Source: Curvularia clavata
Lineage: Eukaryota
Direction of reading: 5' to 3'
Assembly (NCBI GenBank): GCA_023920165.1
Contig: CP089276.1
Location: forward strand, 1,302,001 to 1,366,000
Length of the DNA stretch: 64,000 bases
Below are positions 1-31,316 of the stretch, one piece after another (within the stretch, counting starts at the first letter, position 1; every line of letters begins with the position of its first letter). The notes under the pieces were generated by a model. That model made no database searches. It was not told the origin of the DNA and saw only the letters and a program-made list of their open reading frames with translations. Position numbers and translations under genes: made by a program.

Positions 1-2
1 GC

Positions 3-10232: not shown

Positions 10233-10301
10233 AAGCGCGTAAACGGTTGGAGTATGGTGTGCTAAAGAAAGGATCTCTATTCTCCTCCTCCGCTCCAATT
10301 T

Positions 10302-12015: not shown

Positions 12016-12668
12016 CTAAGCTTTCTTCGCTTTGTCTTCCTCCTGGCCCTTCCTGAGCTCCTCTCGCGGGGGCAAAACATTGGGCCCAAAGCTCAATGGC
12101 AACAACTCGCCCATTGTGCGAACAATCCACTTGCCCTCCTTGTTGAACATGAATATAGGAGTATCTAGCTCCAAGAACTCTCGCAGAAATTGGCGACACA
12201 TTCCGCATGGCGAGCAGAAATCGACAATGTCTGTGGTTACGCCAACGGCCTTGAAGGATCCCAAGCGATGGCCCGCCAGGACAGCCGTACCCATTGCGAC
12301 GCGCTCGGCGCAGGTACCGACGGGATACGATGCATTTTCTACGTTCGCGCCGATAATAACGTGGGTTGCGGAGGGAGCGGTCGGGCTCGAGGTGTTGAGC
12401 AGGAGGGAGGCGCCAACGCGGAAGAGAGAATATGGGCCTATTGCTTGTATCAGCATACAGCGCCATTATCTATCTCCATTTCCCTCTTTCACACATATAC
12501 ACCATGGCCTTAATTGTATCCAAATCACTTACAATAAGCTCTCTCGCGCGCATCAAAGCACTGCTCGCCCAGGATCTGCAACTCCTGGGCCGAGACGCCG
12601 TGGATCAAGCCATTCTCCTCTTGCACAGCTTCTCCGGGGCTGAATTTGGGTATCTGGGTTGAGGACAT
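12016..12668 (-). CDS. CDD1: Cytidine deaminase (185 aa, 2 exons)
   Basis: Exons 12668-12533 and 12437-12016 restore AYCPYSLFRVGA; zinc motifs GANVENASY, CAER, PCGMCRQ; LLPLSF. Confidence 0.95.
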
Positions 12669-13588
12669 GGCAAAGAAGAAAGGGAAAGGGGGGAAAGGAG
12701 GGGCGACGCGTCGCGCTGAGTGCTTTTGATGAGGGCCTGCATGACGTGGGGCCGAGGCTTGAACGCGGGGCTCCTATCCTAGTACAGCTGCTAGATAGAG
12801 CGGCAAGGCACGGTTCGGAGGACTCCGACGGACTTCTTTACTAGCACTGGTGTCTGGTACCATGTCAGCTGCTGTTTATTGCTCACGCGATCGTGTCAGT
12901 GCGCCAAATGGCCCTGAATGGTAAGTTGTTAACTCTGTGCTCCTATCAATGATTGCTGGGCTTCTCTATTGGAACTAGCATTTTGCCTGGGATATTACTA
13001 GGTACCGACAAAACCCGGTCTTCTTTTTTTGTGTCAAGTTCGGGCGTTGAGAAATGTCTTTGGTCTCATTGAGCTTTCAACTTTGACGTTCTTACAATCA
13101 TTAACTTGTGTGGGGGACCGGGGGGTTTGTTTTCGTACGCTGTTTTCCTGTGGACTCTTGTACATGCTTGATTAATGTGAGAAGTCAACATGTTTCATGT
13201 CCGCTGCAGTATCTACTCCCAACTACTTCTGAGTCATTAAAAGACGACAAATACCTCAAGTGTTGAGGTTCAAGACCTAGGCAATGGGTTCACTGCGTCG
13301 AATTGAAGACATCTACATTATCAAAACTCATCAAGCAAACTGGTTCAACCACGTTTTAGAGACGCATGTTCTCAATCTCAGATTTTGTTTAGAATTACTA
13401 AATCTTTGGCTTTGTGTATTGTATAGACTTGGGACATACCGTGCATGTTTCACATTGTAAGGCTTGGGACAAACCATCGATGTTCGTCCACAATGCACTC
13501 TGTGTATACGCTGCGCACGCTCTTAAACTGATTTCTCGCTAGAAATATTTTCTGAAAAGTAATACCACTATTTTTCGAATAAACTCGG

Positions 13589-14995: not shown

Positions 14996-15353
14996 AGAGA
15001 TGGGTTTGTTGTTTGTTCTTTTTTTTTTTGTGGTCTTTGAGAGACGTCATCTGAACATAGAAAAAAGGGTCCGTCTGCTTTTGATACTCGGATACTTTTT
15101 TGTTTATTTGTTTATTTCCAGCATCGTCATATGTTCTAAATGCTTTGTTAAATAGTTACTCCGACACACAATATAAATGCTCCGTTTTGAATCAAGCATT
15201 GCTTGCATCTTCTGCTTTCCGCCGGCCATTGTGAAAACATCACATCAACTCCAGCATCACTTCCACTTGCGTATGTGACACAAACAAACTAACTACGTGA
15301 AACCATCCCCATATCAAACCAAAATGGCATCTTTCTCATAACAACACCGCCTC

Positions 15354-16879
15354 TTACAATACCGCCCTCACACTCTCCTCCGTAGCTGCCTCGTCTCTCC
15401 TCCACTCCTCCATCTCCATCTCCCTCCACCTCCTCTCAACATCATCTTCACAAACATATGTCAATAGCCAACTTCCCACGCCTCCCCACCTCCACGCAAG
15501 CGGGTCGTCACCAACCCTCAACCCTCTTTCCTCATACTCCTCTCTGGTAATTTTTCCCTTGCCATTAAACTCGCCAAACGCACGCAGCAATTGATCCCGC
15601 TGCTCCTGAACCTGACCGTCATGGACATGGTAAAGATACTGCCGGCGGTTACCGCGCGAAACAACGCGCTCAGTGCGGTCACGCCGACACCGCTCGTATA
15701 CAGCCAGTGCCTTTTTCTTCTCAACTGAAGATTTACTCTTGACTCGCGCAAGGCATAGACCCAGCACGTGTCCGTCTTCCAGGGACATACCCGCGCCCGA
15801 AGCGAGATAAGGTAGCGTGGCGTGAGCGGCATCTCCGAGAATTGTGTACGCACTCGATGGATCTGACCATGTGGGGTCAAGGCCCGGGCGGATCATGAGA
15901 CGCCATTTGGAGACGGACTGGCAGAGGGCGAGTAGCTTGGGTATCCTTGGGTCCCAGTCCTTGTAGAGCGCTCTCATTTCTTGTACATTACCGGCGAGAG
16001 TGTTTGCACCTGCGGGCATGTCGTCGGGTACAAGGAGGACCATGTTGAAGAGTTTTCCACCGCGGAGCACGTAGTTGACTGCGTGGGCGTCCGGTCCTAT
16101 CCAGTAGTTGACTTGAGGATCTTCTACGAAGCCTCTTAGCTCAGGGTCCTTGAGCATGTCCTCCGTGCTGAGCAGAAGCCGGTATGCCAAATCGCCAGTG
16201 AGAAGCGGTGGATCCTTGCGGCCTAGTAATATCTCGCGACATTTTGAATTAATACCGTCTGCACCCACTACCAAGTCAGCTGAATATCTCGTGCCGTCTT
16301 GACACACGGCGATGGCCCTTGTAGTGTGGTTCCTTTCATCATCCTCGTACTCGACATCTACCACTCTCGCACTAGTAGTCACCCTAGCTCCCAACTCAAC
16401 GGCTCTTTCCAATAGGCCCCTGTGTAAATCTGCCCTGTGAAAGTCCCAGAACGGTGTACCGCATTCTTTCTCGTATTCGTAAAAATCCATGTCACTTATC
16501 TTGTTGCCCTTCCAACCCAGCATGTTACATAACCGTGGTATCGTCGCATGCTTCGCAAGGTACTCTTCAAGGCCCCAAGAGATGAGGACACGAGAAGAAT
16601 TAGGCAAACACTGGATTCCAGCACCAATTTCACCAATTTCCGATGCTGACTCGAGGACATGTACGTTATGACCGGCTAAAAGAATTGATATCGCGGCTCC
16701 GAGGCCACCTAGGCCAGCGCCGACAATAACGACCTGGGGATGTAAAATTAATCGCAAGTTCTTGGTGAGAGGAAATAAACAAACCCCGAGATTGGTTAAA
16801 CGAGACATCAACCTACATCCAGCTTACTCGCCTCATCTCGATGTTGCTGTTTGATGACCTGAGGTTTAGTCGGCGCCAT
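15354..16879 (-). CDS. Group A FAD-dependent monooxygenase, probable 6-hydroxynicotinate 3-monooxygenase (HxnX/NicC-like; 480 aa, 2 exons)
   Basis: Exons 16879-16817 and 16733-15354. GAGLGG, GADG and GDAAH..P..A.G flavin motifs; HAVNY (HxxxY as in NicC, not diagnostic alone). HxnX identity is inferred from cluster context. Confidence 0.8.
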
Positions 16880-17263
16880 GATGTCACACCTCACTCGCTG
16901 CTAGGTGATATGCTAACAGCAGCAAACAATCCAAATCGATGTTGAACAAAGATAATACATGTACATGAATGTGTAGAAAAGGGTTGCGAGGCTGATCAAA
17001 CTAACAGAGCATACATAATCCAAGATTCCAACCAAGCGTTGTCAGCTGGCAGCATAGTTGTCGTCATACGCTTGCTCACCTACCTATCGAGGGTCAATGC
17101 GTGTGACGACCACAGTAGCTCAACAGACGCATGAGGTTCAAGCTAGATAAGCTCCGCAAGTTTATTTGCTTTTGTAACGTTGCGCCCAGCGAGGACGAAT
17201 AGCTCGATTGGCGGAGGCCACTGGTGGAGCTGCATGTAGGGAAGGCTAATGTTGCCGCCGATG

Positions 17264-17274
17264 CAAGAGTGGGG
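17264..17274 (+). promoter_or_regulatory. Candidate cluster operator CAAGAGTGGGG (copy 1, upstream of FAD monooxygenase)
   Basis: Exact 11-mer also at 21435-21445 and, reverse-complemented, at 28966-28976. Confidence 0.55.
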
Positions 17275-17665
17275 GAGCCGTGAAGATGAATGTGGGAAGC
17301 TGGCGCATGACGGGCGTGAGGGGTATGCACCTACCCCACCCCGATAGGTTCCGGGTCCCGATGCTGATGCGGAAGTACAAGCAGCATATCATTGGAGAAG
17401 GCCTCGGTATATGAAGATAAGCTACAACGTGCCGATTAGGATGCGATCAAGGAAAGGAACAAAGATACTGTTCCTGTCTGGGATGAGATGGATGATAAGA
17501 AGTCTCGCACTAGCACTGGTCCTGTAAGACAATAGTCACGTGACATGTACTTTCACGTCTCGAAGCTCTCTTCAAGTGCGTTTCTGTCAATCCTTGATAT
17601 CACAATTTGAATAACAGAGACTCTAACTATTAAACTAATATATATCAAGGTAGTCATGCAAATGA

Positions 17666-18855
17666 TCATTCTGGCATGGGGCCGTTGTAATCGATCAAGG
17701 AGTACGCCTTGCCTTCCTTCTGCAGCTTCAGAATCTGCCCGCGTGGTGCAGGCATCATTGCTCCCTCTGGGACTTTATTGTTCTTTTTGAATTCATCCGC
17801 CATCTGTTCCATCGTCACCCACTCTACACCCTCGTGCTTGTTGATATGTTCGATGATCCTATTATTCTGGTTAGCAAACTGCTTGTCATGGTGTTATATG
17901 CACTCGCTATACCTCTCATGCATGAGCAAGACATGCGGTCTGCCGGACACATCAGGATGGATTGTCATTGGGAAAACAAACTCGTCGTACTCCCTGTAGA
18001 AGTAGTCAAAGTGGTCCATCCATATCTGCTCGACATCTCTCGGGTTCACCCAGCCATGACTATTTGGACTCTTCTTCATGAACATCATGGGAGGCAGGTC
18101 ATCTATGTACCAGGAACCTGGGATTTCCACGAGCCCAGTTTCTTTTCCTTTCACAAGCGGTTTCATCCACTCCTCCGCCTTCTTGGAATAGTCGATCTTT
18201 GTCCATTCATCGCCGGTACGCAGCCAGTAGCAGCGATGATCCTCATGTGACATCGAGTGGTCGTATTCAATGCCGTAGGAAAGCAGCAGTTCAACCCCTT
18301 CCTTTGAGGTCTCCCACCAGGGAGCTACCGATCCTCGTGGTGGTTTACCACGACAGAAAGCGGTAAGCTGTTTATACGTCTTGTCTAGGACGTCGCGCTG
18401 CTGCTCGAATGTCATGTCGGTCGGGTTCTCGTGGGAGTAGCCATGGAGTCCAATCTCATGGCCTGCATCCCGAACGGCGGCGCAGTCTTCGGGAAATGTG
18501 TCGAGAGAGTGACCAGGCTTTGCAGGTCAGAAACGACTGTGTTGCCAACATGAAATGTGCTTACAATGAACCATGTGGCTTTGATGTTGTATTTGTCGAA
18601 CAATTTCAGTAGACGTTGGGTTCCTACTGTACCAGCCCAGAGACCTGCAGCAAGTCAGTCGCGAATAAATTCACGGTGCCTAGAGCGTTTCCCACCTCTG
18701 CTGATATCGCTCGTCGAGTCTTCCCCACCGTATGAACCAAGCCAGCCAGCGACAGCCTGCGCCGACCATGATCAACAATGTTCCCCTCGTTTGAGTCGTA
18801 GCAGTCTTACATCGATATCAACACCATAACTAACAAGTACTCGTTTCTTGCCCAT
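17666..18855 (-). CDS. hxnM: Polysaccharide-deacetylase-fold (CE4) C-N hydrolase, HxnM-like cyclic imide hydrolase (327 aa, 5 exons)
   Basis: Exons 18855-18811, 18756-18696, 18644-18565, 18517-17913, 17858-17666 splice in frame: [29 protein letters not shown]...[12 protein letters not shown]...[13 protein letters not shown]...PWWE...IDDLPPMMF...HPDVSGRPH. Confidence 0.85.
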
Positions 18856-19278
18856 CGTGTTCGTCCCTCAGCAGTGACAATGGCCACAACACAGAGAAGG
18901 TGGAGGAAATGGAAGCAAGCATTAGAGGTCGAGGCGGAACCTGATCAAAGGCAAGATAACACGGGTGCATAGCTTGCGATAGCTGGTGCAACTACCCCGC
19001 TCATCGGAACTCGTGGTGCAGCATCACTTTCCGAGCGGAGCTGATTGCTCGATTGGAAGGTGGGGGGCCGCAATCGTTGCGCGTGCCCATTGCCTTATCA
19101 CCATACCGTCGCGTCGTCACGTTTTCACGCTCTCACGTGTTCACGCGCGTCGTCATTTTTAGCATTGCACAACGTCACCGACGACATCTTCAGACTCGGC
19201 ATATCATCGGTGAAACCCAACTTAATATGTGCAAGGCCACCTGTCAGCCAAAGTGTCGGAAAACTATCTCCGTACGTA

Positions 19279-21236
19279 TCACTGTCCGTTGACTATTTTG
19301 TCAATTGCATAAGCAGCACCGAGTACCTTCTCTTCTTGTAATCGGCGTGCTACCACCTGGACACCTATCGGCATACCATCCATTGACGCCAAATCAAACG
19401 TCTTCCAATTCCATTCGTCCAAAGGATTTCTAGGATTGTATTCGCCCATGGCCTGTGCGGCCTCTGCATCGGCCGCTTTTGAGACGTGACCACCAGGCAG
19501 CACAACCGCTGGGTAGTCGACAAAATTGAAAACCTTTGTGTACCCAACCCAGCGGCATTTACCGTGGGGCACTGCAGAGTGCGGCATTATAGGTGTGAGC
19601 AGGATATCGACAGGTTTGCCGCTGGCTTCAGATACGGTCGAGTTCCAAAGGTCCAGATACCGCTTCTGCAGTTTCAATTTCTCCTTGTTGAGCTGCCAGT
19701 AGTTGTATACTGAAATTGGCTGTCCCTTGTTCACGAGAGCTTCCACATGTGGTATGAAGGGCTCTCCGCAGGCTTCCACGTCGCGCCGAATATCTTCACC
19801 GCCATCAGCCGTGTAGTATTGGTCCTGCGTCATGTTACGTTTGAGTCAGGCAAAGAAGCTCGGTAGTTGACTTACCATAACATCTATGCATTCCTGATGC
19901 AGGCTGCCTGGTGACCACGGTATAATTTCATGTCCAGCCTTTTGCAACTTACTAGCTACTTGGTCCAATACTCGCAAAACGGGTGGATGGCATCTTACTA
20001 CACCATCGTCTCGCATAACTGCGATCACCAACGGCCTGGACAGCGCATCTTGGTAAACTGCAGATCGCCAAGGAACTGGGCAGCATTTGGGGTCCTGGTC
20101 CCAGGGATTTGCGTCGATCACTGCCTTGGTGACTGTGACCAGGGACTCCATGTTTCGTGTCATCGGTCCTATGACGGAGGGTACGTGCTCTTGACCGTCG
20201 GTTGACACGGAGACACCTTGGTACGGCAGACGCGTACTGCTGGGCTTCAACCCATACACCCCATTCATATGAGATGGGATCCTTATGCTGCCTCCAATAT
20301 CGGTGCCCCATCCAACTACCGTACCTTGCAGTGACAGAAGCGTGGCTTCTCCACCAGTAGACCCCCCGGGTGTGAACTCCGGATTCTTGGGATGGACGGT
20401 ACGACCCCACAATGGGTTGTCTGTTTCGCACCACTGCGAACCTCAGTTATACATTCTGGCCTGGGTGCAGTGTGTAGAAACAGTCATCTTTCCACATACC
20501 ATGATACTTTGTGGTAAATTAGACTTTGCAACGATGACGGCACCCATGTCCCTCAATAAAGAAACCAGAACGCAGTCTTCTTTCGCAGGCTTGAAGGCTC
20601 GTCCTACATATCCCAAGGTGCTGTCATATCCCTGGACATCGAATTGGTCTTTGAGGGTCATCGGTACTCCATGAAGAGGCCCCACAAGCCGACCATTCTC
20701 TTTGAAGAAGGTATCGAGTTCCTTAGCGCGTTTGAGAGCATCTTCAAAAAGTATCTCAGTCAAGCTGCATCTGTCAGCAAAAAGGCACGTTGGGTTCAGA
20801 TCCAAGCACGTGCCAGTTTACCTACGCCTGTTAGCGGAACTTGGGATCGAAGCCGGACCAAAACGGCGGGCCGTACATGGTTTTGAGCGTTTATAGCGCT
20901 GGGAAAAGGTGGCGTGAGAATGGTTCGATAAGTCATGGCTCACAATCCTTACCGGTTGATATAGGCAAGCAGCAGCTGCGTTGCCGTCACGGTATGAGAG
21001 GAGATGGCTTTCGAAACCCCTTCAACGCTATTAATCATGGTCGTCAAGTGCACGCTGTCCTCCGCACTGGCGATCGACTGTACGTAGTCGTCAGCTTAGG
21101 CTACATTGATGTGGGTTCGCGGATGTACCTCGGATGGGGACGTTTCAGCGGCCGCAAATCTCTGGATGGCCTCATCGCGCAGCTTTTGCTTTTTGGTGGC
21201 TGTCTGCCGCCATAGGGGTGTGCTGGATGGCGTCAT
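19279..21236 (-). CDS. hxnN: Amidase-signature family amidase, HxnN-like (560 aa, 6 exons incl. 8-nt microexon)
   Basis: Exons 21236-20953, 20898-20877, 20821-20814, 20764-20500, 20433-19876, 19824-19279. Catalytic triad motifs PMTLKDQ, GGSTGGE, GTDIGGSIRIP. Gene symbol from context. Confidence 0.8.
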
Positions 21237-21434
21237 GCTAGTGATACGTATGAAGACAGTGGAAGCTGGTGGGGGAAGAGCGTGGCGTTAAACGATGTAC
21301 GGGAGCATCCTCAAGAACCCCAACCACCACGTGGATGCAATATCATGACTTGTTCCCGACAGCTAGTTGCCGTATCTCGGTACTTTGTCGGCCTTCCATG
21401 CCCTTGATGGTGTTGGCATGGGCAGCGAGGGTAT

Positions 21435-21445
21435 CAAGAGTGGGG
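21435..21445 (+). promoter_or_regulatory. Candidate cluster operator CAAGAGTGGGG (copy 2, divergent amidase/monooxygenase promoter)
   Basis: Exact 11-mer; 12-nt identity (CAAGAGTGGGGG) with copy 1. Confidence 0.55.
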
Positions 21446-21757
21446 GCGCGCCGCCGCAGGGATGCCGACAAGGACGGCACGGCACTCTCGGACAGCAAGA
21501 TGACCGCGGCAGCCTGCATACATTTGTTCCGACCCCTTGTGTCACATCACCCCATTGCGGACAGCAATTTTCGCAGCTACCAGCACAATGACGCGCTATG
21601 GACGGGTCAATGAGACTCTTCCGTGGTTTGAAAATGGGCGCATGTTCGACAGACAATCGAACGCTGCCCCTCAATCCTTCTCGACACCCCGTGCCGGAAC
21701 CCCCATCTTTGATTTAGCGGCCGGCCCTCTTAACGGCCGCCTGACTACATACCTAGC

Positions 21758-23815
21758 ATGGCGCCCTCACTATGGACTCGCATGAAGCGCTCAACATCTA
21801 ATAGCCCACCGACGTCAGTCCGCGAGAAGATGACGCCTGGCATTACCACTATTTCCGACACCGACTCGCGTTCTACTGGTAGCAGTTTGGAAACTACACC
21901 GTCTGTGCCCTACACCAGAGAGGAAGATTACTCTAGCTTCATGAGTGATGTCATGGTCGTTGGCGCAGGGCCTGCGGGTCTCATGCTTGCGTGAGTGTTG
22001 GCATATGAATCTACAGGCGCCATCTGACAAGAAAACAGAGACAACTTGGTGCGATACGGAATCAAGACGAGAATCATCGATGACCGTCCCAACCGCACAG
22101 CAGCGGGCCGCGCCGACGGGCTTCAACCGAAGACAATTGAGACGCTACGGCAGATGCGACTCGCTGAGCCTTTACTACGGAAAGGTGTGAAAATTTACGA
22201 CATTGCCTTTTGGAAGTCGACGCCCGAAAAGTCCCTATACCGGACTGGCCGCGAGATTCACTACCCGCCAGTTGTTGATCTCCTCGACCCGCACCTGTTG
22301 TTAGTCCATCAGGGTATGGTTGAAGGTGTACTGGAGGACGATTTGAGAGAAAGAGGTGTCTTTGTTGCCAGGAATACTGCGTTCATCGATTTCAAGTACA
22401 CGCCAATGTCCATCCGTCCTTTGACCGTGAACTGCCAGCAGGATGTCAACCGCGCGAAGAAAACCTTCAACACAAGATATATCGTGGGATGTGATGGTGC
22501 GCATTCCAAGGTTCGCAAGTGCATACAGGGCGCCAATCTTGTAGGATCATCAACCGATGCTGTTTGGGGTGTCATAGATGGTGTCCTTGACACTGACTTT
22601 CCGGATATCTGGAGCAAGGTAGTCATCCAGTCAGATGCACTTGGTTCTGTGCTCATGATTCCCCGTGAAAGGGGCCTGACTCGACTGTATATCGAGCTGC
22701 GTCCAGACGCGACTGATGCAATCGGTACTCAACAGGCCACACAAGAATTTGTGCAAAAGCGCGCTCAAGCTATATTGCGTCCATACAGACTAGAGTGGAA
22801 AAGCGTCGAGTGGGTTGGGCGTTACAAGGTCGGACAGCGTGTAGCAGCGCGTTTCACTGATGATGACCAACAGGTCTTTATTGCAGGTGATGCTAGCCAC
22901 ACCCATTCTCCCAAAGCAGCCCAAGGAATGAACACATCAATGCACGATGCATGGAATCTTGCCTGGAAGCTCAACTTCGCTATACGCGGTCTGGCGAAGC
23001 CTTCACTACTCCAGTCCTATGAGCAGGAACGGCAGAAAATTGCGAAGGACTTGATTGATTTCGATTACGAGCATGCGCAGGCTTTCCACCAAGGCGATCC
23101 CGCAGCACTTGCAGCAAATTTCGCCAAGAATGTCGCCTTCATCTCCGGTTACGGCGTTAACTACGACCTGAACGCCCTCAACGTAAGATCGAAAGACTCC
23201 TCTCGCGGCAATCTGAAGCCTGGCTATTTGCTACCACCAGCAAAGGTAACTCGGTACATCGACGCCAACCCAGTGGACATCCAAACCGATATTCCCGCTC
23301 TTGGTCAATTCCGCATTTATTTCTTCACACACAACATCCGCAACTCGATGCCCTTTTTAGAAGCAGTCTGTCACGCACACCTGGGACAAAGCTCCTTCGT
23401 AGGCCGCGTGACCGCCGCCGGAAACGCTTCATACACTGTGCAACCACCTCTTGCAGCACCGCACGATGAATTCGTCATTCCTGAGCGATACACTCCTGTC
23501 AGCGGCGTCTTCACGTATGCTCTTGTGACAGATGAAAATAGAAACAACTTCGAACTCAGAGACCTACCTACAGCATTGCGCGAGTCAGCTTTCACACTGT
23601 ACCTCGACGACATTCCAGAAAAAGACACGCGCAAGCAGAGCTGCATGGACAAGTGGCTAGACGGCCTTGACAAAAACGAGGTCGTGGTTGTCAATGTGCG
23701 ACCAGATGGCTACGTTGGCACGTACCGCCGTTTTGTGGATGGAACGAGGGAGAGTGGTACTGCGGCTGTGCAGTGGATGGACGATTATTATGATCGGTTT
23801 ATGCAGGATACTTAG
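21758..23815 (+). CDS. hxnV: Phenol 2-monooxygenase-like flavoprotein, HxnV-like (2 exons)
   Basis: Exons 21758-21990 and 22039-23815 (GTGAGT..CTGAC..AG). DVMVVGAGPAGL, GRADGLQPKT, GCDGAHS, FIAGDASHTHSPKAAQGMN, thioredoxin-like tail VRPDGYVG. Exact start uncertain; symbol from context. Confidence 0.8.
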
Positions 23816-24160
23816 AGCTCAGCTGTGAACATGTGCGTTTTTAGATTCATGACTTCTTGGCTTCCTTTCTATTCTCTAGACACGGCTTTCATAGGCCGTT
23901 TACGCAAAAGCGAGACTGGACATCTTTCCCTTATCTTTCTATTAGACACATACAACTTTGAAATACATATATTCTTATCTTTTTGAACACATCGCACCTA
24001 CCATTGTACACTAGAAATTCATGTGGTAGACGTAAGAGCGAGCAATCAACACATTTCATTCTGTTTCCTTACCCAGGACCTAGCACTACACCTGATTCAA
24101 CAAAAAGTTTCAGATCCCCCCATTATTCAATTTCTCACAAATCAACCCTCAACGCCCTTC

Positions 24161-27100
24161 TCAAGCAACAGCAACCAAAAACCCTGTTTCCCCCTCCTTC
24201 TTCACCGTCTTCGCCCTATCCACAAGCTCGTCCCCAACCGCCAATCTCAGTCTCTCGCAAGTTGCCGGACTATCCATATTCCACACGCCGGCTTCACCAC
24301 CGACTTCCTTTCCATTCATTCTTCTCGCTGCGACAACGGCTTCCCTCAGCGCGAAGAACACCGTGCTGCCTAAGAAAAGGGGCGGCTCGCCGATACCCTT
24401 GCTACTCTGCACGGTCCTCAGATGGTGCCAGCTCAGCGGCTTGCCATCGTTGTCGTAACGCAGCATGCTGGAGTTGAAAATTTGGGGGATGTCGCTGAAG
24501 CCCGGGATCTTGTAGGTACCTGGGCCGCGAGTGAAGAGCTGGCCGTTACGTGTCCAGAGGGACTCTTCGATGGTGAAGAGACCTTGGCCTTGGATGAAGG
24601 CGCCTTCGATCTGGCCGTAGTCGATAGCGGGGTTGATGGAGTTACCGACGTCCTGATGAATGTATTAGTAGCGGTATACCAAGCAGGAATGATAGGGCTT
24701 ACCATCATGATATCTGAGCGCAGTACTGTATGATCGCCTGTAAGAAGATCCAGCTCCACTTCTGAGCAGCACGCTCCTTGTGTCCAGTAGTAGTACATGG
24801 GCTTGACAGTCTCAAGGTTAGTATCTCCCCAGGTGTATCCGACCTTGGGCATCTTGTAAAATCCGTTAGCAGCAAGGTTGACACGATCAACATAGGCAGC
24901 ATGAGCCACTTCCTTCAATGGTGCATCTTGGCCTAGTTTCTCTCGGTATGGCTTCAAACGTTCGTTGAGCTGATCGCACGCATCCTTCACAGCCATGCCA
25001 TTGAGATCAGATCCAGATGATGCAGCTGTAGGCGATGCGTTGGGGATCTGATAGGTTTGGCTGTCTTGCGTGTAGATGGCGTCGAGAGGAGTGCCGAGCT
25101 CCTGTGCAGCGATCTGGCACATCTTGGTATAGAGACCTTGGCCCATCTCTGTTCCTCCATGGTGCAGTAAAACACTTCCATCCCGATAGATCTTCACATA
25201 TGCAGCAGCCTGGTTGAGATGCAAAGCGGTTGCAAAGCTAAGGCCGAACTTCGATGGCACGAGACATATGCCTCGCTTACGCCACTTGTTTTTCGCGTTG
25301 AACTCTTTGACGGCAGCCTTTCGGTTTTCATAGTCAGAAGACTTACTTAACTGGTGGAGCAGCATCGGAATATGCCAATCCTCGTCAATCTTCTGGAAGA
25401 ATGGAGTGTGCTCCCCAGACTTATACAAATTCTTCCATCGTAGCTCATCGACGTCCATGCCGAGACCTTCTGCAATGTTGTACATGATGGTCTCTGCAAA
25501 GTACATGCCTTGTGGCGCGCCGAAGCCTCGGAATGCGGTGTTACTATGAATGTTGGTTCTGCAAACGTGACCGCGAAGGAACACGTTTGGACATTCGTAT
25601 GCGTTGTCAATGTGTGTGAGGCATCGGTCCATGACTGCTCCACTCATGTCTTGAGAAAAGCCACCATTGTTGTAGAGATCAACCTCCATGGCAAGGAGTT
25701 TGCCTTCTTTTGAAACACCAACTTTCCATTGCGCTTTGAAAGGGTGTCTCTGGCCACTCAGCAGCATGTCTTCGTCGCGGTTCAACATAATCCTGACTGG
25801 TCTTTTCTCTTTCCGAGCAGCGATCGCTGTGTAAATGGCGAAGGGTACACTGCGAGATTCTTTGCCACCGAATCCGCCTCCCATACGCTTAACACGAGCG
25901 TTGACTCGATTGCTCGGTATTCCCAGCACTGCGCTAACAAATTCCTGCACCTCCATCGTGTTCTGAGTAGAAGACCAGACTTCAATAGCTCCATCTTCTC
26001 CAGAGGGGATAGCAAGTGCCGCATTTGTCTCCAGATAGAAATGCTCTTGACCTCCTAGGCGACACGTGCCTTCGAAGATCCTGTCGCATTTGGCGAAAGC
26101 TTCAGCCATTTTGTCGTCTATGGCAAGGCCTTTTCTCAGAAACTTCCCATGAGGGAAGTAGCTTTCGGCTGCAATGGCTTCGTCAATAGTAAGGATATGG
26201 GGCAGCTCTTCGTATTCAACTTTAACAGCTCGAGCGGCTGCTTGAGCCTCCAACGCTGTTTCGGCGTAGACCATTCCAATGACTTGACCATGCGACAAAA
26301 CCTTGTCTTCAGCAAAGAACGGCTCATCTTTCTTGATGGATCCCCATATATTAGCATCAACAGGGATACTGTTTCTATCGATGTAACCAACAACACCAGG
26401 CATCTCGAGCGCGATGTTCCAGTCGATGCTGAGAATCTTGGCATGTGCCTTTGTAGACATGACAAGACCGCCAAACAGCTCGGAAGTTTGCTTCGGCATA
26501 TCGTCGATATACTCTGCTTCGCCCGTGCATTGTTTGAGAGCAGAAAGATGAGGTACTTGCCTCCCCACTACACGTTGCTCGTAGGGGTTGTAGTCATCAC
26601 GTGTTCCACTGGAAATCTCGCGATGTATCTCCTCTACGATCTGCTGGTCAACATCACCGAGTCCAAACTCTGCAGCCGCCTCGTGCCAAAAGCGGAAGAA
26701 GAGCGAGAGTGTAAGGGTCTTGCGGTAATCAGCCATACCGCCTGGTACACTGTATGGAAGGTCATAATCCTGCGTCAATGCAGTAAGCGCAGCATCGAGC
26801 GTCTCCGAGTGAAACCAGGGCTTGCCAAGAAGCGCGCTCTGTGTCTTTGGTGAGTCTTTAGTCATTGGCGCCATCCCACCAAATACAATGGAGGCATCTT
26901 CAACCCGTCCATCAGAATCGAGCCGCACTCTGAAAGCTGCTGTGACAATTGCAATATCATCGTCTTTGCGCTTCGCCTGTTTGTAGGCCTTGAGTACCTC
27001 ACGCGAACCTTCTGGTGGTAAAGGTATTCGGATACGGTGTAGAATTGCATCAGCAGGCAGATTCGTAGTCCTGTATGCCACGAAGAAGTTGGACATGGGA

Positions 27101-28743
27101 AGATCAAAGGTGCCATCATTCTTGTTGATGGCCTCTAGCGTAGCACCTGCAGCCATCAAAACAGGATTCGCGTCTGAGATTGGTGAGGCAGTTGCGATAT
27201 TGCCAGCTAGTGAGGCAACATTGCGAATCTGGCGACCTGCAAAGTATCGTAGTTGTTTTCTGAGTGCTTCAAGTACCATTGCACGCTTGCCAACTTTTGC
27301 ATAGACTGTTTTGCAAATGTTTTCGAGTTCGGTAAGTGAGGAGTTGGCTGCAACAACGAGCTCCTTTGCGGTATCGAGCTCGGCATCCATGGGAAGTTTG
27401 GTGTGCTTCAGCTCCGGAATGTCGGAAATGTACACTGAGACTGCAAAATCCGAGTTCTTGAAACGAACCTCTACCTGGACCTCACTTGCACCACCTACCA
27501 ACTTGGCTGATGGGAAGGCGTCTTTCAAGTCTACTAGTTGCTCGAGCTTGGTAGGTCGAAACCAGATCTTTTTGTCGTTGCCGTAGCATATCGGATGCGG
27601 TTCATGCCTCCATAAAGCTGGTGGAAAGATGAGCTCCGTATCTGGCGCGTATTCAAGAAATTCTACTCGGGGTACACCCTTTTCGGAATTCGTCGCTGGA
27701 GCAAGGATGGCAGAAGTCGAAGTCTTTGTTTCATCGGCCGCCTTATTCTCCTTGCTTTTCAGGGGCTTTGCGTACTCGGTGCCGCTCAAGGCAGGATCCG
27801 CTTGTGGCACTTTCTTCGCATCAAGGATGGCAGGTATAGGCTCATCTTCTGATGCTGAGGAAGGCTCTGTGGGCGGTGAAGAGGCACTAGATTTACTATC
27901 CGCAGAGCTGCTCTCTGATGGTGCATCCCTGCAGCACCCCCCTGGACGACCGCAAGAAACTTTGGAGGGCCCTGCACAACCGTTGCGGGTGAGATCAATG
28001 ACATCCTTTTCGAACCGCTCGGCGTCTGTAGTGACTGGGTCATCCTCCTCGGCTAATTGGCCCTTCAAGTCTTCGGTCACGAATGTCTTTGCGGCCTGCA
28101 GGATTGGCTTGTAACCCGTGCATCGGCACAGATTGCCGTCCAAGTGACCTTCCATTTCAATTTCACGAGCACTGAGATGGAACTTTTTCGTATCAGGGTT
28201 GTACGCGTTTCGCACAACGGCATAGAGGCTCATGACGATACCAGGTGTACCTGAACCGTTTGTCAGTCAACGAACCATGTACTCCGAATTTAGGCACTGA
28301 CAAAATCCACACTGGCTGCCGTGTAGCTTTGCAATCCGCTCTTGCAGGGGGTGTGGTCTGCCAACACTGCCGATACCCTCAACAGTAATGACATGCTTGC
28401 CATCGATACCAACAAGTGGAAATAAGCATGCGTTTACAGATAAATGCTTAATCCTTCTCTTCTCAGATTGCCCGTCTGGGACTTGGAGGACGACTGTGCA
28501 CGCGCCACATCCGCCTTCGCCACATCCCAGCTTCGTGCCTTTGAGGTTAGGCTGCGCGCGGATGTAGTCCAGCAGTGTCCAATACGGATTAGGGTTACTA
28601 ATGACGGTCTTGATGCCGTTGATGTAGGTTGTGATATCCGGTGTTCTGTATGTCGACTCAATCAAGGGTGTGAGGGCGTCAACAGCGGAATACGCCCGCG
28701 GTGGGTCAGCAGCACTGCTTTTTGGTGGAACTGGGAGAGCCAT
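24161..28743 (-). CDS. hxnS: Xanthine dehydrogenase paralogue, nicotinate hydroxylase / purine hydroxylase II (~1493 aa, 3 exons)
   Basis: Exons 28743-28302, 28250-24703, 24652-24161. 2Fe-2S motifs GCGEGGCGAC, QCGFCTPG, GNLCRCTGY; FAD domain; Moco motifs GGGFGGKESR, AFRGFG, SSKGIGEPP. FATALH (HxA type has FTAL) and an insertion in the second Fe-S cluster mark the HxnS type. Confidence 0.9.
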
Positions 28744-28965
28744 GGCTAATCCACGGAGGGTCAACTCAAGACGAGAATAGCACCGAGGAAGGACGCGGTG
28801 CTCTCCTCATAACAAAGTAGACACGGTGCTGATTACCGTTCAGCTTCTGCGCCGTCCACAATAAGGTCACGTGATGATATCTGTAGTTCAGCTGATTGGT
28901 GTGTGCAAGGGTTAACCTTCCAATGGTGGACGACTTTTCTTCGTCGGAAAGCGTGATCCGCAACA

Positions 28966-28976
28966 CCCCACTCTTG
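28966..28976 (-). promoter_or_regulatory. Candidate cluster operator CAAGAGTGGGG (copy 3, ~220 bp upstream of hxnS ATG)
   Basis: CCCCACTCTTG on the + strand. Confidence 0.55.
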
Positions 28977-31316
28977 TACCACCACTCGGAAGGCTGAACG
29001 AATGGCCTTTGTTCCATTTCTGTCTCCGTCATATTTGTATCTACAAGTACATAGCACATGTAGACATCACTCTATCAAACAGGCCCCGTGATCACGAGTA
29101 TAGTCGGGTTCTTACTTACGCCAGTGGCACGTACGTGCTCAGCAAAAGTATGCAACACCATTGTTGTACCAGGGAGGTTGATTTAAGTACTGCAGCCAAT
29201 GTGCGAGCAAAGGCGGTCTACAATTGACCGAAGCCGCCGACAGTATCTAGTGCATGAGCAGTTCCCGTGACCTGGAAATACGAGGAAGATGTGTCTTAGG
29301 CCAGCGGTTATCTGGGTGTGCCAAGCACATTCGCCTTCTTTCCAGTAAGGGCACCAGCCATCAGCTCATGCAACGTGCGGTCCCAGATGGCGCAACAGTA
29401 TCGCTTGCGCCGACCACCTGCCTAAGCTATTGATTATCAAACGGATCGCGTCGTCTGACTACCGCTTGAATAACTGTCAAATCGGGTCGGTCTCTAAACG
29501 ATAACCTGAGTCTCAAGGCGCCTTTTACGATAGATCGCTCAGAGGGCACATTCAATTGCTCCTGGGAGCCATACATTCATAAACCAAGCAGTACTAACCG
29601 TACGGGTATTAGCCTTGGGCCTTACAAATACTCTAGAAGCACTGGGGAGAGCGATCCTAGCAATCACTCGGCACTTGTATAGAGATATTGTGGCGTTTTC
29701 AGCAGATGGGCAACACTAACTTGCGCCCATTGTTGAGGTTGTCCAGGAGTATTTGGATAATTCTCGAAACCAGAGTGAGATAAAACTGAATCTTGTATAT
29801 CGAGGCATCGGCACAGTGTACCACAAATGACATCCAACCCATATTGCTGTCCACTAGCACAACAAGCAATAGCTGCAAACGAACGAAAGCCCTCCGGTTG
29901 TATTTGACACAATTCCCAATTGTCACGAAAAGGGAACAACACTAACCTATTATAGAAGAATCGTTTTGCGTTGTCCAAAAATCACGCTTCCGATGCACAC
30001 CCAGGAAGTTGGGCTAGCACCACTTACTTTTCAGCAGCTACCGGACGCTAGCCACTGTACGAATCCTTCACGCTACTTCGAGTGCCATCTTCGCTGCTTT
30101 CTAAGTCTAGCCGTTTTTTGGGTTTCCTCTCTCAATCCTACCAATCCGGTTTCAGTAGAAACAGCGGAATTCCCGGCGTCGTAGAGGTAAGCCCAAAGTG
30201 CCACTGTTGTATCGATGTAAGTACGCATGCACACACCCAGTGCCTCCTGCATCATTGAAATCAGCTGGTGCACACTCAAGCTTGGGATTCTCTACCAAGG
30301 CCGCTGTCTGGGCTTCGATCGCATCCTCGTCTTGGCAAAGGAAGCAGCACGTCTACGCTACCATTGCAGATGGTGCTTTCCCTACACGGGTAGTCTTCGC
30401 CGACGATGGCTCTGGGCTTCTTGGCAGAATCGCTGAAAAAGTCATCAAACAGACTTGCCAAGCCCCTGAAACTTCTCGTTGTGTTCTGGATGTAAGAGAA
30501 GCTAAGGCGGCCATGGATTGGTAGGAGGAAAGATAGTGTAATCGAACCATGCCGGTACAGGGGCAACTTTCATTTATTCCATCGCGATCAAGCGGGTCGA
30601 TGCAATATATACCGGGCGCGTACTTTGGAAATAGTACGTCATTTGGTGAGCTCCAATATGCACAGTTTCCGCGGATGGACTACTTCTGAACTTAGTTTTG
30701 TTGGATTCGCACAGGATCCCTCAAAACAAACTCTAAGTAATCTCGTTTAAGATTCTAGCCATACGCGGAGCCAAACCCTGCCACATGGGTATCCATCAAA
30801 AAGTTTTGATGTCCGTACCTGTATGGAGAAACGGGTGGCCTTGGTGCAAGGATTCATCGAGTATGAATTCGCACGCCACAATACGGACATTCTGCGGAAC
30901 GGACTTTAAATAAATATCGATCCTGGCTTTCGTCATGAAGATACATGTCAAATTTGCGGATTTCAAGAGGAATGATTTGATGGAAGAATTCTCGCAATCT
31001 AGGCCTTCGGTTACCGTAGCTATTTTAGCCGTAGTGGGTCGCCATCAGTCCGGATAGAGTGCATCAATGTGACACAAGGAATGTTTGTGGTACTAATGTA
31101 TGTACATGTAGGTTTTATATTACATATCCTCTAAAAAAGCGTGGCAGCTCGGGCGGCTAGGGCCAGTACCCGCTGTCAGGTACAACATGAACTGGATCCG
31201 CCCACCGCGCCGCAGACATATCCAGGTTTCCGGATCTCTCCACCGCAACAGTCGTCAGAGACATTTTCTTCGAGTTAAAGATCGTCTGCGGTATTAGAAC
31301 TTAGAGGGCAGTTGAC

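What the first reader, a model, noticed from the sequence alone, without database searches (positions are those of the whole stretch)
15354..28743. Compact five-gene nicotinate (vitamin B3) catabolic cluster: hxnX-like, hxnM, hxnN, hxnV, hxnS
Seen: five contiguous genes (FAD monooxygenase, CE4-fold hydrolase, amidase, phenol-monooxygenase-like, XDH paralogue) with 350-800 bp spacers. Known: in A. nidulans HxnS hydroxylates nicotinate, HxnX makes 2,5-dihydroxypyridine, HxnV hydroxylates it, HxnM opens the cyclic imide and HxnN releases ammonium; there these genes are split over three clusters. Inference: members of all three are joined here. The pathway itself is described, but automated annotation would likely mislabel it as purine or chitin metabolism, and this arrangement may be uncharacterised.
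Basis: partly seen in the sequence, partly recalled or inferred. Interest (0 to 1): 0.75.

Follow-up and report, generated by a model that had tools for sequence, protein, structure and literature searches.

The report
Fungal nicotinate (vitamin B3) breakdown gene cluster
Five neighbouring genes in a Curvularia-like plant-associated fungus encode five of the known enzymes that fungi use to break down nicotinate (vitamin B3) for nitrogen; the pathway and this kind of clustering are already described, so the finding is real but ordinary.

Summary
Window 15354-28743 holds five intact, intron-containing genes with 345-786 bp spacers: hxnX-like, hxnM, hxnN, hxnV and hxnS. The window is from Curvularia clavata or a close relative (Pleosporaceae); the X-like protein is 100% identical to a C. 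clavata protein.

HxnS meets every diagnostic substitution published for nicotinate hydroxylase as against xanthine dehydrogenase. HxnM, HxnN and HxnV match the same solved structures that the A. nidulans papers name for these enzymes. hxnN and hxnV form the divergent pair described as conserved in Pezizomycotina. The X, N and S homologues share contigs in more than 20 other Dothideomycetes.

The novelty claim does not hold. Two 2021 papers already showed that outside Aspergillus hxnM and hxnN lie inside the hxn cluster.

Differences from the published picture:
- No hxnT, hxnW, hxnR, hxnY, hxnP or hxnZ lies in the 64 kb window.
- The M-W and S-T gene couples are broken.
- HxnX ends in -RAVL, not a canonical peroxisomal signal.
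- hxnN needs a 22-nt exon, an 8-nt exon and a GC-AG intron.

Direct comparison with A. nidulans proteins could not be run. Interest is low: a new member of a known kind.

The parts
15354..16879 (-). hxnX-like gene: a group-A FAD monooxygenase and the putative 6-hydroxynicotinate decarboxylating 3-monooxygenase. Exons 16879-16817 and 16733-15354; intron 16816-16734 (83 nt); 480 aa; C-terminus -RAVL.
   Evidence: Pfam FAD_binding_3. The model is letter-for-letter identical to P0121, an NCBI protein named from Curvularia clavata. Solved relatives are 8gsm (5e-99), 8x38, and NicC 5eow/8uiq (about 1e-42). It carries the H238-x-V-x-Y242 motif plus Q62, V229 and V253-L254-L255.
17666..18855 (-). hxnM: CE4-fold cyclic-imide hydrolase. 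Exons 18855-18811, 18756-18696, 18644-18565, 18517-17913 and 17858-17666; 327 aa.
   Evidence: Pfam Polysacc_deac_1. Solved relative 3qbu (HpPgdA), E 2.4e-85. It is 60-66% identical to the 80 best bacterial or archaeal loci. The model aligns at 93% identity with 0 gaps over 317 aa to the HxnM part of P0275.
19279..21236 (-). hxnN: amidase-signature amide hydrolase. Exons 21236-21129, 21077-20953, 20898-20877 (22 nt), 20821-20814 (8 nt), 20764-20500, 20433-19876 and 19824-19279. Intron 20813-20765 has a GC donor. 543 aa.
   Evidence: Pfam Amidase on three ORFs. The FAAH family (6kvr, 1mt5, 2vya) is the best solved match. The model aligns end to end with P0267, P0248 and P0272 and without a gap across the micro-exon junction. 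It is 51% identical to a Lipomyces amidase.
21237..21757 (.). Shared 521-bp region between the divergently transcribed hxnN and hxnV; a putative bidirectional promoter.
   Evidence: Gene models. The hxnN-hxnV divergent couple is described as conserved across Pezizomycotina (PMC8478523 section 2.3). It holds three GHGGGG sites and no HGATAR site.
21758..23815 (+). hxnV: phenol-hydroxylase-type FAD monooxygenase and the putative 2,5-dihydroxypyridine hydroxylase. Exons 21758-21990 and 22039-23815. The start codon is uncertain: in-frame ATGs at 21758, 21782, 21830 and 21941 give 608-669 aa.
   Evidence: Pfam FAD_binding_3 + Phe_hydrox_dim. NCBIfam PRK08294. Solved relatives 8r2u, 1pn0 and 2dkh. 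D104, K271, L283, I285 and Y295 have the same spacing as the A. nidulans residues. It is 56% identical to the V part of P0330.
24161..28743 (-). hxnS: xanthine-dehydrogenase paralogue and nicotinate hydroxylase. Exons 28743-28302, 28250-24703 and 24652-24161. Introns 28301-28251 and 24702-24653. 1493 aa.
   Evidence: Pfam domain set. Model. The alignment to human XOR 2ckj shows all HxnS-specific substitutions (criteria). All 120 of the 120 best database hits carry F-A-T-A-x-H.
28744..31315 (.). A 2.57-kb stretch upstream of hxnS with no recognisable gene. In many fungi the divergent partner hxnT lies in this position.
   Evidence: None of the 44 ORFs of 40 aa or more reaches a Pfam gathering score, and none hits Oxidored_FMN, even at E up to 1.

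Best explanation
This is the enzyme core of the fungal hxn nicotinate-catabolic cluster in a Curvularia-like member of the Pleosporaceae.

The following steps are transferred by analogy from the genetics and metabolite analysis done in Aspergillus nidulans:
1. HxnS (MoCo/FAD/2Fe-2S) hydroxylates nicotinate to 6-hydroxynicotinate.
2. The HxnX-like flavoprotein replaces the carboxyl group by a hydroxyl group, giving 2,5-dihydroxypyridine.
3. HxnV hydroxylates that to 2,3,6-trihydroxypyridine.
4. After ring reduction and oxidation to 3-hydroxypiperidine-2,6-dione, HxnM opens the cyclic imide to alpha-hydroxyglutaramate. In A. nidulans those two intermediate steps are done by HxnT and HxnW, which are not in this window.
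5. HxnN releases ammonium.

What is shown here: the genes are present, intact and linked; each belongs to the named family; the linkage is conserved across Dothideomycetes.

What is inferred: the substrates, co-regulation by an HxnR-type factor, and that the two reductive steps, the regulator and the transporters are supplied by unlinked genes.
For: - HxnS carries the FATAL Ala insertion followed by His. It has Pro at bovine His954, Ser-Gly at bovine Val1081/Ser1082 and Leu at bovine Phe417. The catalytic Glu and Arg are conserved. There is a 9-aa insertion in the second 2Fe-2S motif and a linker of about 138 aa (criteria from PMC5746545 section 2.2). All 120 of 120 best hits carry F-A-T-A-x-H.
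- HxnM's best solved relative is 3qbu at 2.4e-85. It is 60-66% identical to bacterial homologues. Both match what PMC9304392 reports for HxnM.
- HxnN is FAAH-like and keeps the GGS and GGSIRIP serines and the MTLKDQF lysine. It is 51% identical to a Lipomyces amidase; Lipomyces is reported to carry an hxnN-hxnM pair.
- HxnV's best solved relatives are 8r2u, 1pn0 and 2dkh, and it has the same Asp/Lys/Leu/Ile/Tyr spacing as A. nidulans HxnV.
- The HxnX-like protein has the His/Tyr pair and the same residues as A. nidulans HxnX at the six other published active-site positions.
- The divergent hxnN-hxnV couple and the N-then-M tandem are present. The fused database annotations P0275 (N+M) and P0330 (V+N) show the same adjacencies in other fungi.
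- S and X share a contig in 25 named species, and S and N in 22.
Against: - No A. nidulans Hxn sequence could be obtained, so no reciprocal best-hit test or tree against the reference proteins was run.
- The X-like protein is closer to a solved '4-hydroxybenzoate decarboxylase' (8gsm, 5e-99) than to bacterial NicC (about 1e-42). It lacks the canonical PTS1 reported for HxnX.
- In my tree the only named Aspergillus representative (P0370) falls in the sister clade, not in the window's clade.
- hxnT, hxnW, hxnR, hxnY, hxnP and hxnZ are absent from the 64 kb.
- The predicted canonical HxnR site GHGGGG is not enriched in the four promoter regions: 9 seen against 6.7 expected, P = 0.23.
- The intact hxnN reading frame depends on an 8-nt exon and a GC-AG intron that are not confirmed by cDNA.
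Confidence: 0.85

Rival explanations
1. The cluster degrades a related substrate by a partly different route. The X-like enzyme is an MNX1-type 4-hydroxybenzoate or other hydroxy-acid decarboxylating hydroxylase. Without HxnT and HxnW the steps between HxnV and HxnM differ from those of A. nidulans.
For: - The best solved relatives of the X-like protein are 8gsm '4-hydroxybenzoate decarboxylase' and 8x38 'decarboxylative vanillate 1-hydroxylase'.
- No hxnT or hxnW lies in the window, and both published gene couples (M-W and S-T) are broken.
- The protein has no canonical PTS1.
- A. terreus induces its nicotinate cluster on salicylate (PMC7842363).
Against: - HxnS carries the full nicotinate-hydroxylase signature.
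- 6-hydroxynicotinate is the aza-analogue of 4-hydroxybenzoate, so likeness to MNX1-type enzymes is expected for HxnX (my inference).
- The window protein shares all eight published HxnX active-site residues.
- hxnT is dispensable or absent in some Aspergillus species, and a second enzyme does its step in A. nidulans.
Confidence: 0.08
2. The cluster is a decaying remnant. At least hxnN is no longer functional, and the loss of hxnT, hxnW and hxnR marks a pathway on its way out, as described for early-diverging Aspergillus section Flavi.
For: - Without the unusual 8-nt exon and GC-AG intron, hxnN either loses a conserved 10-aa segment or runs into a stop.
- No 100% identical annotated HxnN or HxnS protein appeared in the searches, whereas HxnX did.
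- Six hxn genes are missing from the window.
Against: - All five reading frames are open with canonical or GC-AG introns.
- The proteins are 70-93% identical to those of other Pleosporales, with no frame disruptions.
- The sequence AACTGGCACGTG implied by P0264 ('ETNWHV') suggests the GC donor is conserved in Didymella too (inference).
Confidence: 0.05
3. Unrelated paralogues lie side by side by chance: a purine xanthine dehydrogenase, a chitin or polysaccharide deacetylase, a general amidase and two aromatic hydroxylases.
For: Automated names in public databases suggest exactly these functions.
Against: - The HxnS-specific substitutions rule out a canonical HxA-type XDH.
- The deacetylase-fold protein matches the cyclic-imidase-like 3qbu at 2.4e-85, whereas the next solved hit, a polysaccharide deacetylase, scores 2.5e-13.
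- The linkage is conserved in more than 20 species.
Confidence: 0.02

Closest known systems
Aspergillus nidulans hxn regulon: clusters 1/VI (hxnS,T,R,P,Y,Z), 2/VI (hxnX,W,V) and 3/I (hxnM,N). Sources: Amon 2017 PMC5746545; Bokor 2021 PMC8478523; Bokor 2022 PMC9304392.
   Same: The five enzyme families are the same, and the published diagnostic residues are present in HxnS, HxnX, HxnV and HxnN. HxnM and HxnN follow each other on one strand, as in A. nidulans cluster 3/I.
   Different: Here the five genes form one 13.4-kb block. hxnT, hxnW, hxnR, hxnY, hxnP and hxnZ are not within 64 kb. HxnX ends in -AVL instead of -SRL. HxnS is 1493 aa against 1396 aa. Function and regulation are untested here.
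Single integrated hxn clusters of other Pezizomycotina, such as the 11-gene clusters of Cyphellophora europaea and Hymenoscyphus repandus (PMC8478523 sections 2.1 and 2.3; also Fig. 6 of PMC7842363).
   Same: hxnM and hxnN are integrated with the oxidoreductase genes, and the divergent hxnN-hxnV couple is kept.
   Different: Only 5 of the 11 genes are present. The hxnM-hxnW and hxnS-hxnT divergent couples, described as mostly conserved, are absent. I could not see whether this order is drawn in figure S5B.
Bacterial aerobic nicotinate pathway: Pseudomonas putida nic cluster (NicAB, NicC, NicX, NicD, NicF).
   Same: The first two steps have the same chemistry. A MoCo hydroxylase makes 6-hydroxynicotinate, and a group-A flavoprotein (NicC, 5eow) decarboxylates and hydroxylates it to 2,5-dihydroxypyridine. 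NicC is a detectable homologue of the X-like protein at about 1e-42.
   Different: After 2,5-dihydroxypyridine, the bacterium opens the aromatic ring oxidatively. The fungal route hydroxylates, saturates the ring and then opens a cyclic imide hydrolytically (PMC9304392). The nicotinate hydroxylases evolved convergently.
Fungal MNX1-type decarboxylating 4-hydroxybenzoate/vanillate 1-hydroxylases (solved structures 8gsm, 8x38, 8r2t).
   Same: These are the closest solved relatives of the X-like protein (5e-99 to 7e-72). They share the G-P-x-x-H-x-x-x-Y motif and the same type of reaction on a para-hydroxy acid.
   Different: The window protein sits inside an hxn cluster. At two of the eight published HxnX positions it has Val (-9) and Leu (+17), where 8gsm has Ile and Ala. 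The substrate is not tested.

Membership tests
HxnS (nicotinate hydroxylase, paralogue of xanthine dehydrogenase HxA) | Ala inserted between the conserved Phe and Thr (FATAL instead of FTAL), and His in place of the universally conserved Phe three residues later | tested here: met
   The window reads KFGLSFATALHLNQ. The alignment to human XOR 2ckj shows a one-residue gap opposite the Ala, and His opposite Phe. Criterion from PMC5746545 section 2.2.
HxnS (nicotinate hydroxylase, paralogue of xanthine dehydrogenase HxA) | Pro at bovine His954; Ser-Gly at bovine Val1081/Ser1082; an aliphatic residue at bovine Phe417 | tested here: met
   Pro lies opposite human His955 and Leu opposite human Phe418. 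The window reads PTAASSGSD where the alignment marks non-identity; the human letters at that spot were cut from the printout.
HxnS (nicotinate hydroxylase, paralogue of xanthine dehydrogenase HxA) | XDH-type catalytic Glu and Arg are kept (they are lost in aldehyde oxidases); an insertion lies between Cys 2 and Cys 3 of the second 2Fe-2S motif; the linker to the FAD domain is longer | tested here: met
   Glu in GGKESRS and Arg in VMDRCL align with human Glu803 and Arg881. There is a 9-aa insertion. The linker spans query residues 58-196 against 165-200 in the human chain.
HxnS (nicotinate hydroxylase, paralogue of xanthine dehydrogenase HxA) | Groups with HxnS and not with HxA in a phylogeny; hydroxylates nicotinate | not tested
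   No HxA sequence was in hand. All 120 of 120 best hits carry the HxnS motif. Enzyme activity cannot be tested here.
HxnX (6-hydroxynicotinate 3-monooxygenase, decarboxylating) | Group-A FAD monooxygenase with the substrate-binding His and Tyr four residues apart (A. nidulans His232/Tyr236; NicC His211/Tyr215) | tested here: met
   H238 and Y242 lie in GPDAHAVNY. The pair is shared with MNX1-type enzymes, so it does not discriminate between them.
HxnX (6-hydroxynicotinate 3-monooxygenase, decarboxylating) | The same residues as A. nidulans HxnX at the six further active-site positions (Gln59, Val223, Val234, Val247, Leu248, Leu249) | tested here: met
   The window has Q62, V229, V240, V253, L254 and L255. 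The positions were placed by spacing from the motifs, not by alignment to the A. nidulans protein. The Q-to-H spacing is 176 against 173. All 18 rows of the window's clade have Q, V(-9) and V(+2), and 17 of the 18 have VLL.
HxnX (6-hydroxynicotinate 3-monooxygenase, decarboxylating) | Canonical C-terminal PTS1 (SRL in A. nidulans; said to be conserved in Pezizomycotina HxnX) | tested here: not met
   The C-terminus is -RAVL. Of the 120 best homologues, 40 end in AVL, 10 in ANL, 8 in AQL, 1 in SRL and 1 in SKL. The conserved R-A-x-L may be a weak non-canonical signal; that is my inference.
HxnX (6-hydroxynicotinate 3-monooxygenase, decarboxylating) | Orthology to AN9161 by reciprocal best hit or tree | tested here: inconclusive
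   No A. nidulans sequence was obtained. The tree of 66 rows puts the window in a 100/99 clade of Dothideomycetes and Sordariomycetes. The one named Aspergillus representative (P0370, 43% identical) falls in the sister clade, but its architecture (GxG at residue 10, Q-to-H spacing 184) does not fit the published HxnX numbering.
HxnV (2,5-dihydroxypyridine monooxygenase) | Phenol-hydroxylase fold with the C-terminal dimerisation domain; closest structures PHOX 1pn0 and MHBH 2dkh | tested here: met
   Pfam FAD_binding_3 + Phe_hydrox_dim. NCBIfam PRK08294. 8r2u 3e-78, 1pn0 1e-70, 2dkh 1e-69.
HxnV (2,5-dihydroxypyridine monooxygenase) | Ring-binding Asp, Leu, Ile and Tyr plus Lys, as in A. nidulans Asp65, Lys231, Leu243, Ile245 and Tyr255 | tested here: met
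   The window has D104, K271, L283, I285 and Y295. The K+12, K+14 and K+24 spacing is identical, and D-to-K is 167 against 166 (residues).
HxnV (2,5-dihydroxypyridine monooxygenase) | Divergently transcribed with hxnN; 40-45% identity to the A. nidulans protein; conserved intron positions | tested here: inconclusive
   The divergent couple is present with a 521-bp spacer. Identity to A. nidulans and intron positions could not be compared.
HxnM (3-hydroxypiperidine-2,6-dione cyclic-imide hydrolase) | CE4 HpPgdA-like fold; more than 60% identity to bacterial cyclic-imide hydrolase homologues | tested here: met
   3qbu at 2.4e-85. It is 60-66% identical over 201 aa to the 80 best of the 303 confirmed bacterial or archaeal loci. 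The P. putida AAY98498 protein itself was not compared.
HxnM (3-hydroxypiperidine-2,6-dione cyclic-imide hydrolase) | Divergent couple with hxnW; placement in the clustered-hxnM clade rather than among unclustered paralogues | tested here: not met
   Upstream of hxnM lies the 3' end of hxnN, 423 bp away, and no SDR gene is adjacent. The clade placement was not tested.
HxnN (alpha-hydroxyglutaramate amidase) | Amidase-signature enzyme, FAAH-like, with the Ser-cisSer-Lys triad | tested here: met
   6kvr 1e-35 and 2vya 3e-34. GGSTGGE and GTDIGGSIRIP align with the FAAH serine motifs. The Lys lies in MTLKDQF.
hxn regulon as a whole | HxnR-dependent co-induction by a nicotinate derivative and AreA-dependent nitrogen control | tested here: inconclusive
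   Counts in the four promoter regions against 12.7 kb of control non-ORF sequence: GHGGGG 9 against 6.7 expected (P = 0.23); GNGGDG 27 against 18.3 (P = 0.03); HGATAR 15 against 7.7 (P = 0.013). Expression cannot be tested here.
hxn regulon as a whole | Presence of hxnR, hxnT, hxnW, hxnY, hxnP and hxnZ | tested here: not met
   No C2H2/fungal TF, Oxidored_FMN or 2OG-dioxygenase domain was found in the window. The only SDR (10305-11243) is generic and is not like the 3awd/3uve structures named for HxnW. The only MFS (32582-33874) is Qdr2-like. The rest of the genome is not visible.

The most novel reading that the evidence does not exclude
In Pleosporaceae the nicotinate pathway may have been reorganised into an enzyme-only core of five genes. 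That core has shed both ring-reduction genes (hxnT, hxnW), the regulator and the transporters, and its HxnX has only a degenerate peroxisomal signal (-RAVL). This could mean a variant route: cytosolic rather than peroxisomal, with the step between 2,3,6-trihydroxypyridine and the cyclic imide done by unrelated enzymes or by different chemistry, and under different regulation than HxnR.
Probability: 0.12. Interest if true: 0.5.

Novelty: new member of a known kind. Interest (0 to 1): 0.2.

Why it matters
The fungal nicotinate pathway was worked out only in A. nidulans. A correctly annotated copy in a plant-associated Dothideomycete helps in three ways:
- It stops these genes being read as purine, chitin or salicylate metabolism.
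- It gives corrected gene models, above all for hxnN.
- It shows which parts of the published cluster grammar do not hold in this lineage: the M-W and S-T couples, and the PTS1 on HxnX.

It does not open a new question by itself.

Tried and rejected
**Obtaining A. nidulans Hxn proteins for a reciprocal test**
- None of the three word-index searches listed an A. nidulans protein among its 120 best hits.
- The supplements of PMC8478523 are not held. In PMC9304392 the alignments are pictures.
- The search of 50% representatives plus a cluster look-up named only A. lucknowensis, Septoria, Geoglossum and others.

**SDR at 10305-11243 as hxnW: rejected.** It gives only generic SDR hits at about 1e-15 and no match to 3awd or 3uve. 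It lies 4 kb away, with an APH-domain gene in between.

**MFS at 32582-33874 as hxnP or hxnZ: rejected.** Its best match is Qdr2, 1e-58.

**A decayed hxnT upstream of hxnS: not found**.

**Predicted HxnR and AreA site enrichment: weak or inconclusive**.

**Alternative hxnN splice models.** Reading through, a GTAAAC donor, or a GACAG acceptor all give stops. Skipping from CG|GTAAGG to TGCAG|C gives an open frame but deletes the conserved 10-aa segment.

**One search was wasted.** I set the E-value cut-off just below NicC's score, so the NicC alignment was never printed.

**RNA scans.** Rfam found nothing at gathering threshold.

**Literature.**
- '8GSM' gave 0 papers.
- 'nicotinate' + 'gene cluster' + 'Pleosporales' gave 0 papers.
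- The words Pleosporales, Bipolaris, Alternaria, Pyrenophora and Cochliobolus occur 0 times in the main text of PMC8478523.

Full report
**What is there**

The window is fungal: about 50% G+C, with short GT-AG introns. Between 15354 and 28743 there are five genes.

Pfam on stop-to-stop ORFs gave the following:
- 15357-16823(-): FAD_binding_3.
- 17897-18526(-): Polysacc_deac_1.
- Three co-linear ORFs in 19282-20817(-): Amidase.
- 22028-23812(+): FAD_binding_3 + Phe_hydrox_dim.
- 24164-28806(-): the full xanthine-dehydrogenase domain set.

I built spliced models:

| Gene | Coordinates | Exons | Length |
|---|---|---|---|
| hxnX-like | 16879-15354(-) | 2 | 480 aa |
| hxnM | 18855-17666(-) | 5 | 327 aa |
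| hxnN | 21236-19279(-) | 7 | 543 aa |
| hxnV | 21758-23815(+) | 2 | up to 669 aa (start uncertain) |
| hxnS | 28743-24161(-) | 3 | 1493 aa |

The spacers are 786, 423, 521 and 345 bp.

**Organism**

The X-like model is letter-for-letter identical to P0121, an NCBI protein named from Curvularia clavata. That species belongs to the Pleosporaceae, Dothideomycetes. HxnS is 89.6% identical over its full length to a Bipolaris zeicola protein. The window therefore comes from C. clavata or a very close relative.

**HxnS**

Amon et al. 2017 (PMC5746545; I read section 2.2) list the features that separate HxnS from the canonical xanthine dehydrogenase HxA. In the alignment of the large exon to human XOR 2ckj, every one of them is present:
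- The Ala insertion (SFATALH against SFT-VPF).
- His for the universally conserved Phe.
- Pro at the bovine His954 position.
- Ser-Gly after PTAAS.
- Leu at the bovine Phe417 position.
- The XDH-type Glu and Arg conserved.
- A 9-residue insertion inside the second 2Fe-2S motif.
- A linker to the FAD domain of about 138 residues.

All 120 of the 120 best database hits carry F-A-T-A-[LVIN]-H. I did not build a tree with HxA.

**HxnM, HxnN and HxnV**

Bokor et al. 2022 (PMC9304392; I read the sections on each enzyme) name the closest structures and key residues of each A. nidulans enzyme. The window proteins behave the same way.
- HxnM matches H. pylori HpPgdA (3qbu) at 2.4e-85; the next solved hit, a polysaccharide deacetylase, scores only 2.5e-13. 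It is 60-66% identical to the 80 best of the 303 confirmed bacterial or archaeal homologues.
- HxnN matches the FAAH family with the serine motifs kept. It is 51% identical to a Lipomyces amidase. Lipomyces is a genus reported to keep an hxnN-hxnM pair.
- HxnV matches 8r2u, 1pn0 and 2dkh. Its Asp, Lys, Leu, Ile and Tyr have the spacing of A. nidulans Asp65, Lys231, Leu243, Ile245 and Tyr255.

**The X-like protein is the weakest link**

Evidence that sits awkwardly with the HxnX assignment:
- Its closest solved relatives are fungal decarboxylating hydroxylases of para-hydroxy acids (8gsm at 5e-99, 8x38, 8r2t). Bacterial NicC scores only about 1e-42.
- Its C-terminus is -RAVL, not the canonical PTS1 (SRL) reported for HxnX and said to be conserved in Pezizomycotina.
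- A tree of 66 homologues places it in a strongly supported clade of Dothideomycetes and Sordariomycetes. The only named Aspergillus representative (P0370, A. lucknowensis, 43% identical) lies in the sister clade, together with Pleosporales paralogues that are on other contigs than the hxn genes of those species.

Evidence for the HxnX assignment:
- The window protein has the His/Tyr pair and the same residue as A. nidulans HxnX at all six further published active-site positions.
- The published numbering of HxnX (Gln59, His232, 461 aa) fits the architecture of the window's clade: GxG at residues 25-30 in the full-length members, Q-to-H spacing of 170-176. It does not fit P0370: GxG at 10, spacing 184.
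- 6-hydroxynicotinate is the aza-analogue of 4-hydroxybenzoate, so the family likeness is what one would expect of HxnX (my inference).

Orthology to AN9161 stays untested, because no A. nidulans sequence could be obtained.

**Linkage elsewhere**

I matched organism names and contig lengths by eye in the hit tables. Homologues of S and X share a contig in 25 named species, and S and N in 22. These are mostly Pleosporales, but also Mytilinidiales, Patellariales, Botryosphaeriales, Xylona and two Leotiomycetes. A shared contig does not prove adjacency, but locus tags lie close in seven species:
- Coniothyrium glycines: 010261 / 010263 / 010265.
- Plenodomus lindquistii: 004191 / 004193.
- Neocucurbitaria sp.: 053410 / 053430.
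- Epicoccum nigrum: 002677 / 002680.
- Plenodomus biglobosus: 002300 / 002303.
- Alternaria metachromatica: 007511 / 007517.
- Pleosporales sp. CAS-2024a: 007371 / 007373.

Two fused database annotations show the same adjacencies: P0275 (Periconia, N+M) and P0330 (Scytalidium, V+N).

**What is already in print**

Bokor et al. 2021 (PMC8478523; I read sections 2.2-2.5 and 2.8-2.10 plus passages) state four relevant things:
- Outside Aspergillus, hxnN and hxnM lie within the hxn cluster.
- 11-gene single clusters exist.
- The divergent couples hxnN-hxnV, hxnM-hxnW, hxnS-hxnT and hxnP-hxnY are widely conserved.
- Dothideomycetes acquired the clustered hxnM from Xylonomycetes.

The preprint's figure legends show Dothideomycetes in the HxnR, T, V, M and S trees. 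Martins et al. 2021 (PMC7842363, passages only) drew the cluster with the deacetylase and amidase across Ascomycota. Joining members of the three A. nidulans clusters is therefore known.

I found no text on Pleosporales or Curvularia specifically. Figure S5B was not readable.

**How this locus differs from the published picture**
- No domain typical of hxnR, hxnT or hxnY occurs anywhere in the 64 kb.
- The only SDR (10305-11243) and the only MFS gene (32582-33874) look unrelated to hxnW and hxnP/hxnZ.
- The hxnM-hxnW and hxnS-hxnT couples are therefore broken here.
- Upstream of hxnS lies 2.57 kb without a recognisable gene.
- hxnT is known to be dispensable or absent in some Aspergillus species, and a second enzyme covers its step. 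The missing genes may simply lie elsewhere in the genome.

**Regulation**

The predicted sites from the 2021 paper gave weak results in the four promoter regions, compared with 12.7 kb of non-ORF control sequence from the same window:

| Motif | Observed | Expected | P |
|---|---|---|---|
| GHGGGG | 9 | 6.7 | 0.23 |
| GNGGDG | 27 | 18.3 | 0.03 |
| HGATAR | 15 | 7.7 | 0.013 |

This neither supports nor refutes co-regulation.

**Verdict**

This is a real, intact and conserved hxn enzyme cluster. The pathway assignment rests on family membership and synteny, with function transferred from A. nidulans. It is a new member of a known kind, and interest is low. The most novel reading still open is a pared-down or re-routed pathway in Pleosporaceae.

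Noticed in passing
window 20765-20898 (hxnN exons 3-4 and flanking introns): To encode the conserved segment AINAQNHVNC, hxnN needs a 22-nt exon, a 55-nt intron, an 8-nt exon and a 49-nt GC-AG intron. Of the 120 database homologues, 47 carry the segment by my pattern, 44 lack it (2 of those have a TNA variant), and 29 did not match the pattern. All listed Pleosporaceae models lack it. This looks like a systematic annotation error in public gene models.
   Followed up: partly
window 15354-15368 (C-terminus of the X-like protein): The C-terminal R-A-x-L is conserved across the 120 best homologues: AVL 40, ANL 10, AQL 8, PLL 7, SVL 6, ANI 6, and only 1 SRL and 1 SKL. It may be a weak non-canonical peroxisomal signal. 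The canonical SRL of A. nidulans HxnX is not the rule in this clade.
   Followed up: partly
window 28744-31315: A 2.57-kb stretch upstream of hxnS has no ORF with a domain hit. It is several times longer than the other spacers of the cluster, and it is where hxnT sits in many fungi.
   Followed up: yes
window 21758-21941 (5' end of hxnV): Four in-frame ATGs precede the GxGxxG motif. The alignment to a Leotiomycete homologue starts only at residue 62 of the longest model, so up to 61 Ser/Thr-rich N-terminal residues may not be translated.
   Followed up: partly
proteins P0372 (Sporormia fimetaria) and P0511 (Dendryphion nanum): Two Pleosporales that have HxnN homologues (Dendryphion also HxnS) showed no member of the window's X clade among the 120 best hits. 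Each has a sister-clade paralogue, on a different contig from its hxn genes.
   Followed up: no
proteins P0275 and P0330: Public models fuse neighbouring hxn genes into single proteins: amidase + deacetylase in Periconia digitata (901 aa) and phenol hydroxylase + amidase in Scytalidium lignicola (1155 aa).
   Followed up: yes
window 8335-8423 (+): ARAGORN calls an 89-nt tRNA-Lys(CUU), a length that suggests an intron. Rfam reported nothing at gathering threshold anywhere in the window.
   Followed up: no
window 54000-58000: This is the most G+C-rich part of the window (0.60 against about 0.50). It also has the highest density of GHGGGG motifs (up to 7 per 500 bp near 55.7 kb). It lies around an F-box gene and an SH3-domain gene.
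   Followed up: no
window 1-15000 and 31000-64000: The flanking genes have no evident link to nicotinate. They include a P450 (2908-3957), DUF924, HscB/DnaJ, an SDR, an APH-domain protein (13583-14992), Spherulin4, a Qdr2-like MFS, GATase, a beta-eliminating lyase, FSH1, a Trx-Grx protein, Brix, MMS19 and a THF dehydrogenase. Several long ORFs have no Pfam hit: 1131-2837, 6358-7803, 50709-52028 and 59395-60798.
   Followed up: partly
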